Under the pieces are notes generated by a model, which did no database searches, was not told the DNA's origin, and was given only the letters and a program-made list of their open reading frames with translations. From Rhodoferax sp. (GTDB taxonomy: Bacteria > Pseudomonadota > Gammaproteobacteria > Burkholderiales > Burkholderiaceae_C), in the NCBI RefSeq assembly GCF_010365055.1, contig NZ_JAAFHA010000008.1, forward strand, positions 2,750-66,749: a stretch of DNA of 64,000 bases, written 5' to 3'. Shown one piece after another: positions 20,866 through 24,756 of this stretch; positions within the stretch are counted from its first letter, which is position 1, and each line of letters starts with the position of its first letter. The position numbers were made by a program, and so were the translations under genes.

Positions 20866-21720
20866 CTAAAGCGCTAGTTCACTGGGATGGCACACCTGGG
20901 CGAGTCTGGTCTTCTTGGCAAATCCTGGCGTTGCACTGCGGCGCTCAGTCTGCTGCAGCCATGCCAACAGAGCGGGGTCGTTCGCGCCCACTTGCGCCTC
21001 GACCTCTTGCAGACTGGCGAGATAGGGGGCCACGGGTCCGTAGTAATCAGTTTGCGGTCCAATGGACTGGAAGGCAATGTTCATGCGCTTCAACGAGCGC
21101 GCCAACGGGCGCTCCATGGCGGCGTACCAATGGCTGATGTCATTGGCGCGACTGTAGGCGTACATCTGGCGATAGAGTGTCAGTAGCACGTTCGTAGCGT
21201 CATCACGCCTCACACCCGGCGCCACCGCGCAGGCCTGCCCCCCCGCCACGCCTGCGAGTTGGATGCCACGCTGGCGCCGGTAGTCACAGCGCAACATCAG
21301 CCGACTGATCTCGGCGGCGCGGCCAGGCGCGGGCAGTTTGACGCCATTCGCGGAGGTCGTGCAATGACTTTGAAACGGGAACCGCTGGTCAGCATCGGGG
21401 CGAACCAGGCGCACATAACCCACCAAATCTTGCTGCGAGTCGAAAGCGTAGAAATGTTCTGCGGCATTGTCGTGTTCGTCCGATTCCACCCCATCCGGGT
21501 AGTTGTCCGGCGACAAGAAACTGCACTCCACGCAATAGACCTGGTACCTGAGTTCCAGGGCGCTTCTAAAGGCACGATGCTGGATGCGCAGGCCAGGCTG
21601 GTCCCAATGCGTCGCGCCAACCGTTGGTTTCATCGACCGCGCGGCCACGTCAAGGTCTCGTGTGGGGTGTTCGAGTCTTCCAAATCGATGGTCTTTGGTC
21701 TCAAAACGATGTGTTTTCAT
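20866..21720 (-). CDS. PEP-CTERM/exosortase-associated N-acyl amino acid synthase-like acyltransferase (FeeM/ExoAT type), copy 1
   Basis: LRYQVYC.E..F, ESDEHD..A.HF, AEISRL, WYAAMERPLAR, IGP..DYYG..APY; next to a PEP-CTERM gene. Start uncertain (21720, 21756 or 21780). Confidence 0.82.
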   Translation of the reverse strand: MKTHRFETKDHRFGRLEHPTRDLDVAARSMKPTVGATHWDQPGLRIQHRAFRSALELRYQVYCVECSFLSPDNYPDGVESDEHDNAAEHFYAFDSQQDLVGYVRLVRPDADQRFPFQSHCTTSANGVKLPAPGRAAEISRLMLRCDYRRQRGIQLAGVAGGQACAVAPGVRRDDATNVLLTLYRQMYAYSRANDISHWYAAMERPLARSLKRMNIAFQSIGPQTDYYGPVAPYLASLQEVEAQVGANDPALLAWLQQTERRSATPGFAKKTRLAQVCHPSELAL

Positions 21721-21861
21721 GGTGTCACGTGTCAGTAAAGAAGATTCATGCGCGGCCATCCTAAGCCAGGATTGCCTCAAACATGGGCGGGGTTTACAGA
21801 CTGTTTCGAGTGGCGCACTATGTCACAGGGTCTTTGGATATTCAGCGTACATTGAGGCCGC

Positions 21862-21883
21862 TTTCGTTACAGTTTCGTTACAG
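21862..21883 (+). repeat. Perfect 11-bp tandem direct repeat (TTTCGTTACAG)x2 in divergent intergenic region
   Basis: Read directly from the sequence. Confidence 0.7.
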
Positions 21884-21965
21884 CTTTGGCGGCATACGGG
21901 AGTCGTATCCGCGCACGGAACTGTGGAAAAATTATTGATTTTCTTTGACCCAGGAGATTTGACAA

Positions 21966-22817
21966 ATGACAAACGCCTTTGATTACGAAACATCGATCAC
22001 CCGAAACAACGGCTACATCACGGCCGAGACGCAGGCAAAAATTAGAAGGACGAGACTGCTGATCGCCGGCTGCGGAATTGGCAGCAGCCCCGCAGTCTGT
22101 GCAGCACGTATGGGCTTCGAAAATTTTGTATTGGTGGACGGTGACGTGGTTGACGCACACAATCTGAATCGCCAGTTCTACGACTTTTCGGATATCGGCA
22201 AGCCCAAGGTCGCGGCGCTGAAAGACAAGATTCTGAGGATCAACCCGCTGGCCCAGGTGGAGGCGATCGAGGCGTATCTTGATGCAGACAATACAGACGA
22301 CATTGTTGGCAAAGCAGACATCGTGTTTGATACCGTTGATTTCCTTGACTTGCCCGCGATCCTGCGCTTGCATGACAGCGCAAAGCAACACAAGGCGCAC
22401 ATATTTACAGCCTTGAGCGTAGGTTTTGGCGCTTTGGTCTGGTATTTCCCGGCGGACTCCAGCCTGGCATTGACCGATATGCTGGCACCGGACATCGCGG
22501 ACGTCAGTGCGGGCGGTGCTGTCCCCAGCTACGCCGATGTTTTCGCCTCATTCATACAACGACTGGCACCACATCTCGATGCTGAGGTCGTCGAGCAGGT
22601 AAGCAAGGTGCTCACCATGATGAAGGATGGCAAGCCCTGTCCGGCCTCGCAAGTCGCCGTTGGCAGCTTTGCGATCGGCGCCATGGCCATGTCCATGATC
22701 CACGACTTGCTGGCGGGCAATCCCGTCCCCTCGGCGCCCAAACTGGTCCTGCACAGCTTCAGGAGCTATCAGACCAAAATAGTGGATGTATCGGTCAGCC
22801 GGACTCAGGCCATGTAG
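21966..22817 (+). CDS. ThiF/MoeB/E1-like adenylyltransferase
   Basis: IAGCGIGS, VLVDGDVVDAHNLNRQF, IGKPKV...RINP; no CxxC Zn motifs; GGAG RBS. Confidence 0.85.
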   Translation: MTNAFDYETSITRNNGYITAETQAKIRRTRLLIAGCGIGSSPAVCAARMGFENFVLVDGDVVDAHNLNRQFYDFSDIGKPKVAALKDKILRINPLAQVEAIEAYLDADNTDDIVGKADIVFDTVDFLDLPAILRLHDSAKQHKAHIFTALSVGFGALVWYFPADSSLALTDMLAPDIADVSAGGAVPSYADVFASFIQRLAPHLDAEVVEQVSKVLTMMKDGKPCPASQVAVGSFAIGAMAMSMIHDLLAGNPVPSAPKLVLHSFRSYQTKIVDVSVSRTQAM

Positions 22818-22848
22818 TCAAACTCGGGCTATGACTAGGCTGTCCCGG

Positions 22849-22966
22849 TGTCGGAATTTTTTACAACCGCCTTACCGGGCATTGAGAGAGATGCCCTGCA
22901 TGCGATCTAACTAATTGATTTCAAATAGAAAATAGAAACCCATCGAAGTCCGGCACGGTATGTGCT
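22849..22966 (+). promoter_or_regulatory. Sigma54 promoter of the PEP-CTERM gene with upstream activator box and IHF site
   Basis: TGT-N11-ACA ending TTTACA (22849-22865); exact IHF consensus AATCAATTAGTTA on the minus strand (22908-22920); -24/-12 element CGGCACGGTATGTGCT (GG at 22952-53, GC at 22964-65). Confidence 0.75.
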
Positions 22967-23023
22967 TTATTAAATCTAGCAGCTGCCGCCTTCTGGTACT
23001 GTTATTTTTCAAGGAGTTCGAAG

Positions 23024-23923
23024 ATGAAGATGCACATCAAAGCTCTGGCCGTCGCCGCGATGACCGCGGTGGCGTCGCTGGCAGCAACAGCCGCCCCGCT
23101 GGAAACTTTGGCGGGCCCTTACAACTGGAAGCTTCAGGGCACGACCAGTGAGTACAGTCCGGTGGCCTACGGCGCTGGTGCCCTCGCAGAAACAACGTGG
23201 GGCATTGGTCAAATCACCGAAATCAACCAGTCCAACGGCGATCCTGCCTGGACCAAGGGGGACGGTGGTGATTACCTCTACTACATGCTCTATGGCATGG
23301 CCGACCTCACGGTCAACCCGATAAGCTCTGGCTTTAACATCTACAACGTGGGTTGTACCGGTGGTTTAGGGTGCGATGGAAAGATTCACATCGACATCTA
23401 TCGCATGCCATCGATTATTTCTGGAATTCTCCAGAAGGACCCTGATGGTCGACTCGGCTTCAATGGCTTCAATGGCTTGACCAACGCCGCAGGGGCCAGC
23501 CTGTATTTGGGTCTTGAGCTCGTGCCGGGCAAAGTCATTGTTGATGATCCCTCCACTCCACTGATTGATGAAAGAGATGCGACGCTTTTCCAGAACGCAA
23601 ACGCAAATACGCTTCCAACGACTGGTGCCGGTACGTTCTTTGCTGACGCCACCGGCGGGTCGGCCATGAACCAATGGAATTCCAATGGCTTTTTGTTGCC
23701 AAGTGGTCTTTTTGCGGATTTCGACGCAAACTTCACACTGAAGCCTAACTTTGCGGCGTTTGGCGGTGCGTGTCCGACTGGTTCCCTGCCTAGCGAGTGT
23801 TTCCTCGGACTGATCAATGATCCGGTTCAAAGTAACGCGATTCCTGAGCCAGGTAGCTTGGTTTTGTTTGGCCTCGCACTTGCTGCATTTGGTGTGATTC
23901 GTCGCCGCGAGAATAAGAAGTAA
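23024..23923 (+). CDS. PEP-CTERM sorting-domain protein
   Basis: N-terminal signal peptide; C-terminus IPEPGSLVLFGLALAAFGVIRRRENKK (PEP, TM helix, basic tail). Confidence 0.95.
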   Translation: MKMHIKALAVAAMTAVASLAATAAPLETLAGPYNWKLQGTTSEYSPVAYGAGALAETTWGIGQITEINQSNGDPAWTKGDGGDYLYYMLYGMADLTVNPISSGFNIYNVGCTGGLGCDGKIHIDIYRMPSIISGILQKDPDGRLGFNGFNGLTNAAGASLYLGLELVPGKVIVDDPSTPLIDERDATLFQNANANTLPTTGAGTFFADATGGSAMNQWNSNGFLLPSGLFADFDANFTLKPNFAAFGGACPTGSLPSECFLGLINDPVQSNAIPEPGSLVLFGLALAAFGVIRRRENKK

Positions 23924-23943
23924 GTTTCAGAGCTCATCGACGG

Positions 23944-23977
23944 AAACTGCCTGGTTGAAACCAGGCAGTTTTTTTTG
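23944..23977 (+). terminator. Rho-independent terminator after the PEP-CTERM gene
   Basis: AAACTGCCTGGT-TGAA-ACCAGGCAGTTT followed by a T run. Confidence 0.85.
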
Positions 23978-24030
23978 TTTTACAGGCACCCGTCGCGCAG
24001 GGTCGCAAAATTCTTGTCAAATTGCCAGGA

Positions 24031-24756
24031 TTAGAGGCTCACAGTTTCCGACCTCTGCATCCATGCCATCAGCGCCGGATTCTTCTCCTCGAGATGCGCT
24101 TCCAGTTCACGCAGATCACCGATGTAGGGCGCCACCACGCCGTAATAGTCGCTCGGCGGTCCGATCTGCCGAAAAACGAAGTTCATCTGGTTCAAGGCGC
24201 GGGCCAGAGGGCGTTCCATGGCCGCGTACCAGTAGCGAATGCCGTTGGCGAGGCTGAAGGCGTACATCTGACGGTACATACTCAACAGAATTTGGGGCGA
24301 GTGGTCCCGCAGTTCATGAGCGCCCCTCGCAAGGTCTTCCTCAACGGTGACACCTTCCAGCACGTCGCCGCGCCGACGTCGGTAGTCGCGGCGCACCATC
24401 AATCGACTGATTTCGGCCGCCTGTGCCGGCGGCGCCAGGCTGGCGCCCTCCAGCAACGCGCTGCAATGAGATTGAAACGGAAAGGACTGCCCCAGGTCTG
24501 AGCGCACCAGGCGCACGTAACCCACCAACTCATCGCGCAGATTGAACGCGCAGAAATGCGCCGAGCTGGCATCGCGTTCGTCTGTCTCGCAGCGCTCCGG
24601 ATAATTGGCGGCGGGCAGAAAACCGCGTTCCTCACAATAGACTTGGTAGCGCAGTTCAAAAATCCGAAGCATCAGGGCGTTGTCCCGACTCTGAATGGCC
24701 TCGCAACTATGGAACAGGGGCGCAAACTCTGCTTGATCTAGTGATAGGGTAGGCAT
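24031..24756 (-). CDS. PEP-CTERM/exosortase-associated acyltransferase (FeeM/ExoAT type), copy 2
   Basis: LRYQVYCEERGFL, AAEISRLMVRRDYRRR, WYAAMERPLAR, IGPPSDYYGVVAPY; clear paralogue of 20866-21720. Confidence 0.85.
   Translation of the reverse strand: MPTLSLDQAEFAPLFHSCEAIQSRDNALMLRIFELRYQVYCEERGFLPAANYPERCETDERDASSAHFCAFNLRDELVGYVRLVRSDLGQSFPFQSHCSALLEGASLAPPAQAAEISRLMVRRDYRRRRGDVLEGVTVEEDLARGAHELRDHSPQILLSMYRQMYAFSLANGIRYWYAAMERPLARALNQMNFVFRQIGPPSDYYGVVAPYIGDLRELEAHLEEKNPALMAWMQRSETVSL

What the first reader, a model, noticed from the sequence alone, without database searches (positions are those of the whole stretch)
20866..24756. Compact cassette: two N-acyl amino acid synthase paralogues and a ThiF enzyme around one PEP-CTERM protein, with no exosortase in the window
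Seen: acyltransferase1 (-), ThiF (+), PEP-CTERM protein (+) and acyltransferase2 (-) sit between two housekeeping genes and look more AT-rich by eye. The two acyltransferases share long motifs (LRYQVYC, AEISRL, WYAAMERPLAR, DYYG..APY). Established: FeeM-type N-acyl amino acid synthases are linked to PEP-CTERM/exosortase systems, and in the OxzAB pathway a ThiF-domain enzyme activates N-acyl amino acids to form oxazolones. The anchor attached to PEP-CTERM proteins in Gram-negative bacteria is, to my knowledge, unresolved. Inference: the stand-alone ThiF (no nitroreductase domain, no Zn CxxC) may adenylate the N-acyl amino acid. The product could be a lipid anchor or modification for the co-located PEP-CTERM protein, or a small signal molecule. 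Two synthases could supply two different head groups.
Basis: partly seen in the sequence, partly recalled or inferred. Interest (0 to 1): 0.72.

Follow-up and report, generated by a model that had tools for sequence, protein, structure and literature searches.

The report
Swappable lipoamino-acid cassette with ThiF
A Rhodoferax genome carries a small accessory gene set (two fatty-acyl amino acid synthases, an ATP-dependent ThiF activating enzyme and one exosortase-sorted surface protein) that recurs in many bacteria, lacks the oxidase of the published oxazolone pathways, and in sister species has its ThiF half replaced at the very same site by an unrelated acid-activating enzyme.

Summary
At 20866-24756 lie two TIGR03694 N-acyl amino acid synthases (55% identical), a 283-aa stand-alone ThiF and a PEP-CTERM protein, between a hypoxanthine-DNA glycosylase and TatD.

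The genome has one XrtA exosortase with its full polysaccharide locus, and PrsK/PrsR/PrsT, on other contigs.

The ThiF-acyltransferase-PEP-CTERM neighbourhood is conserved. An acyltransferase is near ThiF in 26 of 31 related loci and a PEP-CTERM gene in 23.

ThiF keeps all adenylation residues. It has no Zn motifs, no ubiquitin-like partner and no nitroreductase oxidase in the cassette, related loci or genome. It falls in a clade apart from the OxzB-type ThiF-nitroreductase fusions.

New here: in sister Rhodoferax genomes, window 21811-24056 (ThiF plus PEP-CTERM gene) is replaced at the same site by a PaaK-family adenylating enzyme plus another PEP-CTERM gene. The cassette PEP-CTERM gene has its own sigma-54 promoter in 29 of 32 loci.

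Best reading: an accessory lipoamino-acid pathway of the XrtA regulon in which ThiF activates the N-acyl amino acid carboxylate.

A universal anchor role is unlikely, since half of the good-quality XrtA-positive congeners lack the synthases. This is a new variant of a known kind.

The parts
20866..21720 (-). AT1, a TIGR03694 PEP-CTERM/exosortase-associated N-acyl amino acid synthase. 284 aa from the ATG at 21720; the ORF extends to a TTG at 21780.
   Evidence: TIGR03694 at 233 bits (cut-off 112) and PF13444. It falls in the AT1-type clade with SH-aLRT 99. Orthologues of 74-84% identity sit at the same chromosomal site in sister genomes.
21721..21965 (.). Divergent AT1/ThiF intergenic region. 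It holds a conserved block at about 21790-21822 and a tandem direct repeat TTTCGTTACAG x2 at 21865-21886. The left boundary of the swapped segment is at 21807-21810.
   Evidence: Alignment with the G155 orthologous region. No sigma-54-like motif was found here.
21966..22817 (+). Stand-alone ThiF/E1-like adenylating enzyme, 283 aa, with no Zn CxxC motif, no RRE and no nitroreductase domain.
   Evidence: PF00899 at 108.7 bits, below every NCBIfam equivalog cut-off. Invariant GCGIGS 35-40, D58, NxNRQ 66-70, K81 and DTVDF 122-126 map onto E. coli ThiF 1ZUD. The closest solved structure is 9EGB/9EGC, aligned over the full length at E 7e-31. It falls in a clade separate from the ThiF-nitroreductase fusions.
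22951..22966 (+). Sigma-54 type promoter (CGGCACGGTATGTGCT; GG-N10-GC), its 5' end 73 nt upstream of the PEP-CTERM gene start.
   Evidence: It is identical in the G155/L013 orthologous regions while sequence further upstream diverges. A like motif lies upstream of 7 of 11 PEP-CTERM genes in this genome, against 4.7% of 2585 long ORFs (p 1.5e-7). It also lies upstream of 29 of 32 cassette PEP-CTERM genes in other loci.
23024..23923 (+). PEP-CTERM protein ('PEPC' family), 299 aa. It has a signal peptide, an all-beta domain of about 250 aa, an IPEPGS motif, a TM helix and an RRRENKK tail.
   Evidence: PF07589 at 27.1 bits and TIGR02595 at 21.3 bits. 67 homologues were found. The AF2 model has pLDDT 84.8 and pTM 0.81. 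No significant PDB fold match. Homologues sit beside ThiF in 15 related loci.
23942..23973 (+). Intrinsic terminator after the PEP-CTERM gene (14-bp stem followed by a T run).
   Evidence: the sequence is shown.
24031..24756 (-). AT2, the second TIGR03694 N-acyl amino acid synthase. 241 aa from the ATG at 24756; the ORF extends to 24846.
   Evidence: TIGR03694 at 249.8 bits and PF21926 FeeM at 39.8 bits. It is 55% identical to AT1. In the alternative cassette version, AT2-type genes directly precede the PaaK-like gene.
21811..24056 (.). Exchangeable central segment: ThiF, the sigma-54 promoter, the PEP-CTERM gene, the terminator and the last ~9 codons of AT2. In sister genomes it is replaced at the same site by a PEP-CTERM gene plus a PaaK-family adenylating enzyme.
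   Evidence: The flanks SpeE-like/glycosylase/AT1 and AT2/TatD/PotD are shared at 80-89% DNA identity with L045, L051 and L053. Homology stops at 21807-21810 and resumes at 24057. GC is lower in this segment.

Best explanation
This is an accessory, polymorphic lipoamino-acid cassette that belongs to the XrtA/PEP-CTERM (floc/biofilm) system of a Rhodoferax species.

Shown:
- AT1 and AT2 are members of TIGR03694, the FeeM/LuxI-like N-acyl amino acid synthase family.
- The ThiF is an intact ATP-dependent carboxylate-adenylating enzyme. Its family almost always neighbours such synthases and a PEP-CTERM gene.
- The PEP-CTERM gene is a separate sigma-54 unit, like its siblings in the genome.
- The central ThiF plus PEP-CTERM segment is exchangeable, at the same chromosomal site, for a PaaK-family adenylating enzyme plus another PEP-CTERM gene.

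Inferred:
- AT1 and AT2 acylate two different amino acids, or use two acyl donors.
- ThiF adenylates the free carboxylate of the N-acyl amino acid, as do the ThiF parts of OxzB, TyzB and TrzS.
- No flavin oxidase is present. The product is therefore not a conjugated tyrazolone-type oxazolone. It is an activated species: an acyl-adenylate that closes to a saturated 5(4H)-oxazolone, or is passed to another nucleophile.
- The product is an envelope or released lipid acting with the sigma-54/PrsKR-controlled PEP-CTERM programme. It is more probably a modulator or signal than a compulsory anchor.
For: - Family scores.
- The only two TIGR03694 genes of the genome are these two.
- A complete XrtA locus and PrsK/PrsR/PrsT lie elsewhere in the genome.
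- Adenylation residues are invariant in the family and map onto E. coli ThiF.
- Neighbourhood: an acyltransferase lies near ThiF in 26 of 31 loci, two acyltransferases in 13, and a PEP-CTERM gene in 23, with gene order and orientation varying. Recurrent further neighbours are PrsT, PrsK, PrsR and LolCDE-like/LolA-like/DUF1302 proteins.
- Published precedent for N-acyltransferase plus ThiF acting on N-acyl amino acids: bioRxiv 10.1101/2020.06.11.147165, PMC10404671, PMC12856293. The last shows that the cyclised saturated intermediate forms when the oxidase is disabled.
- No oxidase: none in the cassette, no recurrent neighbour gene cluster resembling one in the related loci, and no match to the nitroreductase part of PRK14851 in the genome.
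- Exchange for a PaaK-family enzyme at the same site. That enzyme directly follows an AT2-type gene in the metagenome loci where upstream sequence is held. In the proteobacterial cassettes the two enzymes exclude each other: no PaaK-like gene beside ThiF except in L041, and 0 of 32 the other way.
- Phyletic nesting in 81 congeners: XrtA in 26, which contain all 14 synthase-positive genomes, which contain both ThiF-positive genomes (p 5e-9).
Against: - No biochemical data exist for any member of this ThiF clade.
- The ThiF is not in the clade of the characterised-type ThiF-nitroreductase enzymes, so the substrate is assigned by context only.
- A PaaK-like enzyme would classically activate the acyl donor, not the N-acyl amino acid. 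The swap therefore shows only that an adenylating step is needed, not which acid is activated.
They may therefore not be equivalent.
- A saturated oxazolone hydrolyses easily, so an unidentified acceptor or a different reaction may be involved.
- ThiF, AT1 and AT2 lack the sigma-54 promoter of the PEP-CTERM gene. Co-regulation is not shown.
- No expression data could be obtained.
Confidence: 0.55

Rival explanations
1. Signal reading. The ThiF-tailored (or PaaK-tailored) N-acyl amino acid is a diffusible or membrane-borne signal. It is sensed by PrsK or another sensor, which then switches on sigma-54 PEP-CTERM genes such as the one in the cassette. The exchangeable centre would give alternative 'dialects'. 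This concerns the role and is compatible with the chemistry of the best explanation.
For: The synthases are LuxI/FeeM-like, with weak PF00765 hits. In other genomes the module sits beside PrsK, PrsR and PrsT. The cassette PEP-CTERM gene is sigma-54 dependent in 29 of 32 loci, while the enzymes are not. The sister clade of this ThiF is the Flavobacteriaceae family of PDB 9EGB, whose gene lies beside a LuxR-type (GerE) regulator and a 216-227 aa protein with weak FeeM/autoinducer-synthase hits. The locus has conserved arms and a swapped centre. Earlier unchecked notes report synthase-ThiF-sensor kinase cassettes in Patescibacteria.
Against: No receptor is linked in this genome; PrsKRT is on another contig. 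Nothing shows that PrsK binds a lipid. The flavobacterial neighbour hits fall below Pfam cut-offs. Half of the good-quality XrtA/PrsK-bearing congeners do without the synthases.
Confidence: 0.3
2. Anchor or lipidation reading. The activated N-acyl amino acid is attached to the cassette's PEP-CTERM protein, or to the exopolysaccharide, or it serves as the acceptor in the exosortase reaction.
For: A PEP-CTERM gene sits inside the cassette in nearly all loci of both versions. The adenylating enzyme and the PEP-CTERM gene are exchanged together. An adenylate or saturated oxazolone is a chemically competent acyl donor (inference). LolCDE-like, LolA-like and DUF1302 genes flank the module in other genomes.
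Against: TIGR03694 is absent from 12 of 26 XrtA-positive congeners. An N-acyl amino acid has no free amine to resolve an exosortase acyl-enzyme. ThiF is cytoplasmic, while the mature PEP-CTERM domain is exported. PEPC-family proteins occur with either enzyme type, and other PEP-CTERM families fill the slot, so there is no strict pairing. This genome has at least 11 PEP-CTERM proteins scattered elsewhere.
Confidence: 0.12
3. Upstream-activation reading. ThiF (and the PaaK-like enzyme in sister species) activates the carboxylic acid that the acyltransferases then transfer. It would supply the acyl donor and would not tailor the N-acyl amino acid.
For: PaaK-family enzymes normally make acyl-adenylates or acyl-CoAs from free acids. 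The PaaK-like gene is directly coupled downstream of AT2. The swap suggests a shared need for one adenylation step.
Against: No ThiF-family enzyme is known to feed GNAT/LuxI-type transferases. All characterised synthase-linked ThiF enzymes act after N-acylation (PMC10404671, PMC12856293). To my knowledge (Craig et al. 2011; paper not held), TIGR03694-type synthases make N-acyl amino acids in E. coli with no partner.
Confidence: 0.08
4. Classical E1 or RiPP reading. ThiF adenylates the C-terminus of a small ubiquitin-like sulfur carrier or of a precursor peptide, unrelated to the acyltransferases.
For: The Rossmann core scores best against ThiS-adenylyltransferase models: PRK08644 at 114 bits.
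Against: The score is below every equivalog cut-off. There are no Zn CxxC motifs and no RRE domain. No ThiS/MoaD-like or GG-ended ORF lies in the cassette. The genome has two other ThiF/MoeB paralogues for housekeeping roles. The neighbours are acyltransferases in 26 of 31 loci.
Confidence: 0.04

Closest known systems
[quoted passage not shown]
   Same: AT1 and AT2 score far above the family cut-off. The genome has XrtA and PEP-CTERM proteins. In 81 congeners, every synthase-positive genome is XrtA-positive.
   Different: Here there are two old paralogues that bracket an adenylating enzyme and a PEP-CTERM gene as a compact, movable cassette outside the XrtA locus. I found no description of the adenylating partners in the searchable literature.
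Acyl-oxazolone pathways OxzA/OxzB (Pseudoalteromonas rubra), TyzA/TyzB/TyzC and TrzA/TrzS (Mycobacterium tuberculosis)
   Same: A FeeM/LuxI-like N-acyltransferase sits next to a ThiF-like ATP-dependent enzyme with an intact adenylation motif. Synthases next to ThiF-nitroreductase fusions in this class are homologous to AT1/AT2 at 27-36% identity.
   Different: No nitroreductase-type flavin oxidase is fused, adjacent or detectable in the genome. The ThiF falls in a separate clade (SH-aLRT 99) together with the 9EGB family. It scores 72 bits on PRK14851, against 280-420 bits for true members. A PEP-CTERM gene is embedded in the cassette.
[quoted passage not shown]
   Same: It is the only solved structure that aligns over the whole length, including the family-specific C-terminal half (E 7e-31). 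It belongs to the sister clade in the tree. Its gene also neighbours a probable FeeM/LuxI-like protein.
   Different: About 30% identity. C225 of the window's family is not conserved there. The neighbour is a LuxR-type regulator and there is no PEP-CTERM gene. I found no publication.
PaaK-family AMP ligases, including the CoA-independent NatL2, AjiA1 and ClxA of benzoxazole pathways
   Same: The ~480-aa protein that replaces ThiF in sister cassettes has this fold and these motifs (Foldseek E 2.6e-12; profile E 5.6e-8 to PaaK1).
   Different: It is not present in this window. It has a degenerate P-loop (TSSGRGGRS) and matches no curated family above cut-off. Its substrate is unknown.
ThiF/MoeB sulfur-carrier adenylyltransferases
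   Same: Rossmann ATP site, Arg/Lys phosphate ligands and a catalytic Asp.
   Different: No Zn site, no ThiS/MoaD partner, a different C-terminal half, and scores below the cut-offs.

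Membership tests
TIGR03694 PEP-CTERM/exosortase-associated N-acyl amino acid synthase | HMM score above the curated cut-off (111.95 bits) | tested here: met
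   AT1 scores 233 bits and AT2 249.8 bits.
TIGR03694 PEP-CTERM/exosortase-associated N-acyl amino acid synthase | The genome encodes an exosortase/PEP-CTERM system | tested here: met
   An XrtA-EpsI fusion of 528 aa lies in a full XrtA locus on contig C100. There are at least 11 PEP-CTERM proteins. All 14 of 14 synthase-positive congeners have XrtA.
TIGR03694 PEP-CTERM/exosortase-associated N-acyl amino acid synthase | Makes long-chain N-acyl amino acids | not testable with these tools
   Needs expression and LC-MS.
Acyl-oxazolone synthetase system (OxzAB / TyzABC / TrzAS) | FeeM/LuxI-like N-acyltransferase gene adjacent to the ThiF-like gene | tested here: met
   AT1 is divergent from ThiF and 245 bp away; AT2 is 1.2 kb downstream. 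The arrangement is conserved in 26 of 31 loci.
Acyl-oxazolone synthetase system (OxzAB / TyzABC / TrzAS) | ThiF-like cyclase with an intact adenylation motif (the Asp equivalent to TrzS D217) | tested here: met
   DTVDF 122-126, R69, K81 and GxGxxG are invariant and aligned to E. coli ThiF. Equivalence to TrzS D217 is inferred from the shared motif, not from a direct alignment.
Acyl-oxazolone synthetase system (OxzAB / TyzABC / TrzAS) | Nitroreductase-superfamily flavin-dependent oxidase fused to, or adjacent to, ThiF | tested here: not met
   None in the cassette. No recurrent neighbour cluster resembling one in the related loci. No genome match to PRK14851 positions beyond 186. Only five small generic PF00881 proteins elsewhere.
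Acyl-oxazolone synthetase system (OxzAB / TyzABC / TrzAS) | ThiF part belongs to the ThiF-nitroreductase (PRK14851-type) clade | tested here: not met
   72 bits, against 280-424 bits for members. It forms a separate clade in the tree. That PRK14851-type proteins are ThiF-nitroreductase fusions next to synthases was checked.
ThiF/MoeB sulfur-carrier-activating E1 | Equivalog HMM cut-offs | tested here: not met
   PRK08644: 114 bits, below 159. TIGR02356: 81.5, below 275. TIGR02355: 64, below 377.
ThiF/MoeB sulfur-carrier-activating E1 | Zn-binding CxxC pairs and an adjacent ThiS/MoaD-like partner | tested here: not met
   No CxxC. No small GG-ended ORF in or beside the cassette among ORFs of at least 50 aa. 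Shorter ORFs were not examined exhaustively.
PEP-CTERM sorting-signal proteins (exosortase substrates) | C-terminal PEP motif, TM helix and basic tail above the Pfam/TIGRFAM cut-offs, with an N-terminal signal peptide | tested here: met
   PF07589 at 27.1 (above 20.7) and TIGR02595 at 21.3 (above 16). The tail reads IPEPGSLVLFGLALAAFGVIRRRENKK. The model has helices at 3-21 and 276-297.
Flocculation protein PepA (NF033554) | HMM score above 80 bits | tested here: not met
   25.2 bits, C-terminal part only.

The most novel reading that the evidence does not exclude
The conserved arms (AT1, AT2) and the exchangeable centre (adenylating enzyme plus PEP-CTERM gene) could form a polymorphic 'lipid dialect' locus. 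The ThiF version would make a saturated N-acyl oxazolone or adenylate and the PaaK version a different activated lipoamino acid. This activated lipid would either be the long-sought ligand class of the PrsK sensor that drives sigma-54 PEP-CTERM genes, or be transferred covalently onto the cassette's own PEP-CTERM protein or the exopolysaccharide. Either way, the exosortase system would gain its first defined small-molecule partner.
Probability: 0.12. Interest if true: 0.85.

Novelty: new variant of a known kind. Interest (0 to 1): 0.55.

Why it matters
[quoted passage not shown] So is the reason why one synthase family tracks the exosortase system.

This locus offers a compact, genetically simple test case:
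- four genes;
- no oxidase;
- a natural 'isogenic' comparison, in which sister species carry a PaaK-type enzyme in place of ThiF at the same site;
- a built-in sigma-54 reporter gene.

It shows that at least three different tailoring solutions sit next to homologous synthases: the ThiF-nitroreductase fusion, an oxidase-less ThiF of another clade, and a PaaK-like ligase. It also argues against the product being a compulsory exosortase anchor. A solved but apparently unpublished structure (9EGB) of the sister clade could guide substrate docking.

Tried and rejected
- An evenly drawn order-level sample of 151 genomes held the ThiF family only in the window's own genome. This was uninformative for co-occurrence, so I moved to the genus level.
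- Foldseek of the PEP-CTERM protein model against the PDB gave no significant match (best E 0.013, TM at most 0.35). The weak resemblance to lipocalin-like or LolA-like barrels was not used.
- phmmer of AT2 against PDB sequences found nothing.
- A profile of only five PaaK-like sequences was not significant against the PDB (E 0.17). It became significant only with 22 sequences.
- A window-wide sigma-54 pattern count did not exceed chance (66 observed against 61 expected). The claim rests on position, conservation and enrichment upstream of PEP-CTERM genes.
- Literature searches for 9EGB/9EGC/9EGD, for ThiF + LuxR + Flavobacteria, and for PEP-CTERM + acyltransferase + phenylacetate-CoA ligase found nothing relevant.
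- Craig et al. 2011 (PMC3187218) is not held.
- I considered and rejected these readings: membership of PepA (NF033554) for the PEP-CTERM protein; a ThiS/MoaD-type E1 role; and strict pairing between enzyme type and PEP-CTERM family, because PEPC-like proteins also follow the PaaK-like gene in L062 and L075.

Full report
**Observation.**
- AT1 (20866-21720, minus strand; ORF to 21780) scores 233 bits on TIGR03694.
- AT2 (24031-24756, minus strand; ORF to 24846) scores 249.8 bits on TIGR03694 (cut-off 112). AT2 also hits Pfam FeeM.
- The 283-aa protein at 21966-22817 is a ThiF-family protein (PF00899, 108.7 bits) that stays below every NCBIfam equivalog cut-off.
- The 299-aa protein at 23024-23923 carries a PEP-CTERM signal above the Pfam and TIGRFAM cut-offs.
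- The flanks are a deoxyinosine DNA glycosylase and TatD.
- AT1 and AT2 are 55% identical over 208 residues and share the quoted motifs.
- ThiF has no CxxC motif and no second domain.
- The lower G+C is real but confined to the centre: 0.558 for ThiF, 0.543 for the PEP-CTERM gene and 0.45-0.49 for the spacers. The two acyltransferase genes are at about 0.60 and the window at 0.606.

**Genome context.** The window lies on contig C31 of a 4.33-Mb, 188-contig assembly. By its closest relatives this is a Rhodoferax species.
- The genome has one exosortase, an XrtA-EpsI fusion on contig C100. It sits inside a complete canonical XrtA polysaccharide locus: three stp glycosyltransferases, amidotransferase, FemAB-like protein, deacetylase, ATPase, outer-membrane protein, tyrosine kinase, chain-length determinant and exporter.
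- PrsK, PrsR, PrsT and the HprK-related kinase are on contig C54. A LolD/LolCE/LolA-like trio is on C33.
- The two cassette genes are the only TIGR03694 genes in the genome.
- At least 11 convincing PEP-CTERM proteins are scattered over other contigs.

**Conservation.** The ThiF has 937 homologues at E <= 1e-10. The best 120 are stand-alone proteins, mostly of about 280 aa, with 68-100% identity.

A scan of one genome per species returned 30 loci. They come from Rhodoferax, Janthinobacterium, Massilia, Undibacterium, Pseudoduganella, Caenimonas, Thiobacillus, Sulfuritalea, Propionivibrio and Pararhizobium, and from Desulfuromonadales, Fibrobacterota and Bdellovibrionales MAGs. Counting two further metagenome loci and leaving out one false hit gives 31 loci:
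- A TIGR03694-like gene lies within a few kb of ThiF in 26 loci, and two such genes in 13.
- A PEP-CTERM gene lies near ThiF in 23 loci.
- That PEP-CTERM gene is homologous to the window's in 15 loci.

Gene order and orientation differ between lineages, so the linkage is more than inherited synteny. Other recurrent neighbours are PrsT, PrsK, PrsR, the HprK-related kinase, LolCE-like and LolD-like ABC parts, a LolA-like protein and DUF1302.

**The two synthases.** In a tree of 40 cassette acyltransferases, AT1 falls in a clade with SH-aLRT 99. Several genomes (L013, L015, L021, L036) hold one AT1-type and one AT2-type gene. Oxalobacteraceae and the Thiobacillus group also keep two deep paralogues. 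The duplication is old and both copies are retained, which fits two specificities.

**ThiF anatomy and kinship.**
- The family alignment shows invariant GCGxGS (35-40), D58, NxNRQ (R69), K81 and DTxDF (122-126).
- These residues align with the ATP-binding and catalytic residues of E. coli ThiF (1ZUD) and MoeB. The enzyme should therefore adenylate a carboxylate.
- Beyond residue about 160 it resembles only two things. One is NCBIfam PRK08223, an unnamed family (108 bits, below its cut-off). The other is PDB 9EGB/9EGC/9EGD (E 7e-31 over the full length).
- The PDB protein belongs to a large Flavobacteriaceae family. Its gene sits next to a LuxR-type (GerE) regulator and a 216-227 aa protein. 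Two independent copies of that protein give weak FeeM and autoinducer-synthase hits. I found no paper on these entries.

**Relation to the published oxazolone enzymes.** OxzAB, TyzABC and TrzAS pair an N-acyltransferase with a ThiF-like cyclase and a nitroreductase-type flavin oxidase (bioRxiv 10.1101/2020.06.11.147165; PMC10404671; PMC12856293; review PMC12596934).
- No such oxidase is present here. There is none in the cassette and no recurrent neighbour resembling one in the related loci. The genome has no match to the oxidase part of PRK14851 and only five small generic nitroreductases elsewhere.
- PRK14851-type proteins occur in 35 of 400 sampled genomes of the class. The fused ~660-aa forms are ThiF plus nitroreductase by Pfam. 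Eight of 12 fetched loci have a homologue of AT1/AT2 next door.
- In a tree of ThiF domains these fusions form one clade. The window's family, the 9EGB family and one Bdellovibrionales protein form another clade (SH-aLRT 99).
- This cassette therefore works like the Oxz/Tyz/Trz systems in its first two steps, but it is not a member of that system.

**The exchangeable centre (the main new result).** Among 81 species of the genus, only two (this genome and G155) have this ThiF, while 14 have TIGR03694 genes.
- In five of the others the two synthase genes again bracket about 3 kb. The content there is a PEP-CTERM gene plus a 468-509 aa protein that abuts or overlaps AT2.
- That protein has weak hits to PaaK, F390 synthetase, FlxY and DVU_1553 ligases.
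- It carries the motifs TSSGRGGRS, RYxTGD and GRIKDR.
- A 22-sequence profile hits PaaK1 (2Y27) at E 5.6e-8 in three colinear pieces.
- Its AF2 model is modest (pLDDT 62), yet its best 28 Foldseek hits are PaaK-family AMP ligases or related putative acyl-CoA ligases (E down to 2.6e-12), followed by other adenylate-forming ligases. Among the hits are the CoA-independent NatL2, AjiA1 and ClxA.
- In 32 metagenome loci this gene directly follows an AT2-type gene wherever upstream sequence is held, and in most loci with downstream sequence a PEP-CTERM gene follows. None of these loci has a ThiF.
- Conversely, the ThiF loci have no such ligase, except the distant L041.
- Most telling, G219 (L045) and two metagenome contigs (L051, L053) share the window's flanks: SpeE-like, glycosylase, AT1 ... 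AT2, TatD, PotD-like. DNA identity there is 77-89%.
- Homology to the window stops at 21807-21810 and resumes at 24057.
- Window 21811-24056 is therefore an allelic segment. ThiF plus the PEPC gene in this genome stands where the PaaK-like gene plus another PEP-CTERM gene stands in sister genomes. One of those PEP-CTERM genes is of the THxN family (95 bits).
- The lower G+C of exactly this segment fits a more recent import.

**The PEP-CTERM gene.**
- A GG-N10-GC sigma-54 promoter (22951-22966) begins 73 nt upstream of the start codon. It is identical in the two closest relatives, while sequence further upstream diverges.
- Similar motifs precede 7 of 11 PEP-CTERM genes of this genome, against 4.7% of 2585 long ORFs (p 1.5e-7).
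- They also precede 29 of 32 cassette PEP-CTERM genes of both versions (background 12%).
- A strong terminator follows the gene.
- ThiF, AT1 and AT2 have no such promoter.
- The protein family (67 homologues) gives a confident all-beta model (pLDDT 84.8) with no significant PDB match.
- It is not PepA (25 bits against a cut-off of 80).

**Phyletic pattern.** In the 81 congeners, XrtA above cut-off occurs in 26 genomes. TIGR03694 occurs in 14, all of them XrtA-positive (hypergeometric p 5e-9). This ThiF occurs in 2, both synthase-positive. Among good-quality genomes, 7 of 14 XrtA-positive species lack the synthases. The module is thus an optional add-on of the XrtA system and not a core part.

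**Mechanism.**
- Shown: two genuine family members of N-acyl amino acid synthases; an adenylation-competent ThiF tied to them by conserved context; no oxidase; a separate sigma-54 cargo gene; and exchangeability of ThiF with a PaaK-type adenylating enzyme.
- Inferred: the synthases make one or two N-acyl amino acids. ThiF adenylates their carboxylate. The adenylate closes to a saturated 5(4H)-oxazolone, a species seen when the TrzS oxidase is disabled (PMC12856293), or is captured by another nucleophile.
- On the role, I favour an envelope or signal lipid acting with the PrsKR/sigma-54 programme over a compulsory anchor. The reasons are the phyletic pattern, the variable PEP-CTERM families, the cytoplasmic location of ThiF and the LuxR-linked sister clade.
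- The swap shows that an adenylation step is needed. It does not show which acid is activated.

**Novelty.** The synthase-exosortase link (2011) and the synthase-ThiF chemistry (2020-2025) are published. A Rubrivivax paper lists ThiF genes in a PEP-CTERM cluster table without comment (PMC3684757). I found no description of the following:
- an oxidase-less ThiF clade tied to these synthases;
- its sister relation to the 9EGB family;
- the site-specific exchange with a PaaK-family enzyme.

Earlier notes of this scan report related modules many times, so within the scan the theme is recurrent. I class it as a new variant of a known kind, of moderate interest.

**Limits.** There is no biochemistry. 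The PaaK-like model is of modest confidence. ORF calls in related loci are my own and some starts are over-extended.

Noticed in passing
L043:6001-8331 and L044:6001-8398 (Polaribacter and Zobellia genomes): The family of the unpublished PDB entries 9EGB/9EGC/9EGD (stand-alone ThiF, 251 aa, widespread in Flavobacteriaceae) lies in a conserved trio. The other two genes are a 252-aa LuxR-type (GerE) regulator and a 216-227 aa protein with weak FeeM and autoinducer-synthase hits. This looks like a LuxI/LuxR-style locus with a ThiF tailoring enzyme.
   Followed up: partly
window 21865-21886, and 21790-21822: A tandem direct repeat TTTCGTTACAG x2 and a fully conserved 33-nt block lie in the divergent AT1/ThiF promoter region. 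Both are kept in the G155 orthologue. They are candidate regulator binding sites. The homology break with the PaaK-version genomes falls inside the conserved block.
   Followed up: partly
own genome, contig C33:27287-29965 (outside the window): A LolD-like, LolCE-like and LolA-like trio is homologous to the ABC and carrier genes that directly flank the ThiF cassette in other genomes (L007, L017). In this genome it is unlinked from the cassette, from XrtA (C100) and from PrsKRT (C54).
   Followed up: partly
L041:4324-7813 (Bdellovibrionales MAG): The most divergent ThiF relative (47% identity) has a distant PaaK-like protein (573 aa) about 1 kb upstream. The two adenylating enzyme types can therefore co-occur outside the proteobacterial cassettes.
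   Followed up: no
L083-L093 (genomes of the same class): ThiF-nitroreductase fusions of about 660 aa (OxzB architecture) occur in about 9% of 400 sampled genomes. Eight of 12 fetched loci have a TIGR03694-like acyltransferase next door. Split forms (a ~300-aa ThiF plus a ~370-aa second part) also occur, in G541, G305 and G398.
   Followed up: partly
window 23024-23923: The PEPC family domain gives a confident all-beta AlphaFold model with no significant match in the PDB. It may be an undescribed fold.
   Followed up: partly
window 22880-22950: An AT-rich stretch (ATCTAACTAATTGATTTCAAATAGAAAATAGAAA) just upstream of the sigma-54 promoter is conserved in relatives. It is a possible IHF or activator site.
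   Followed up: no
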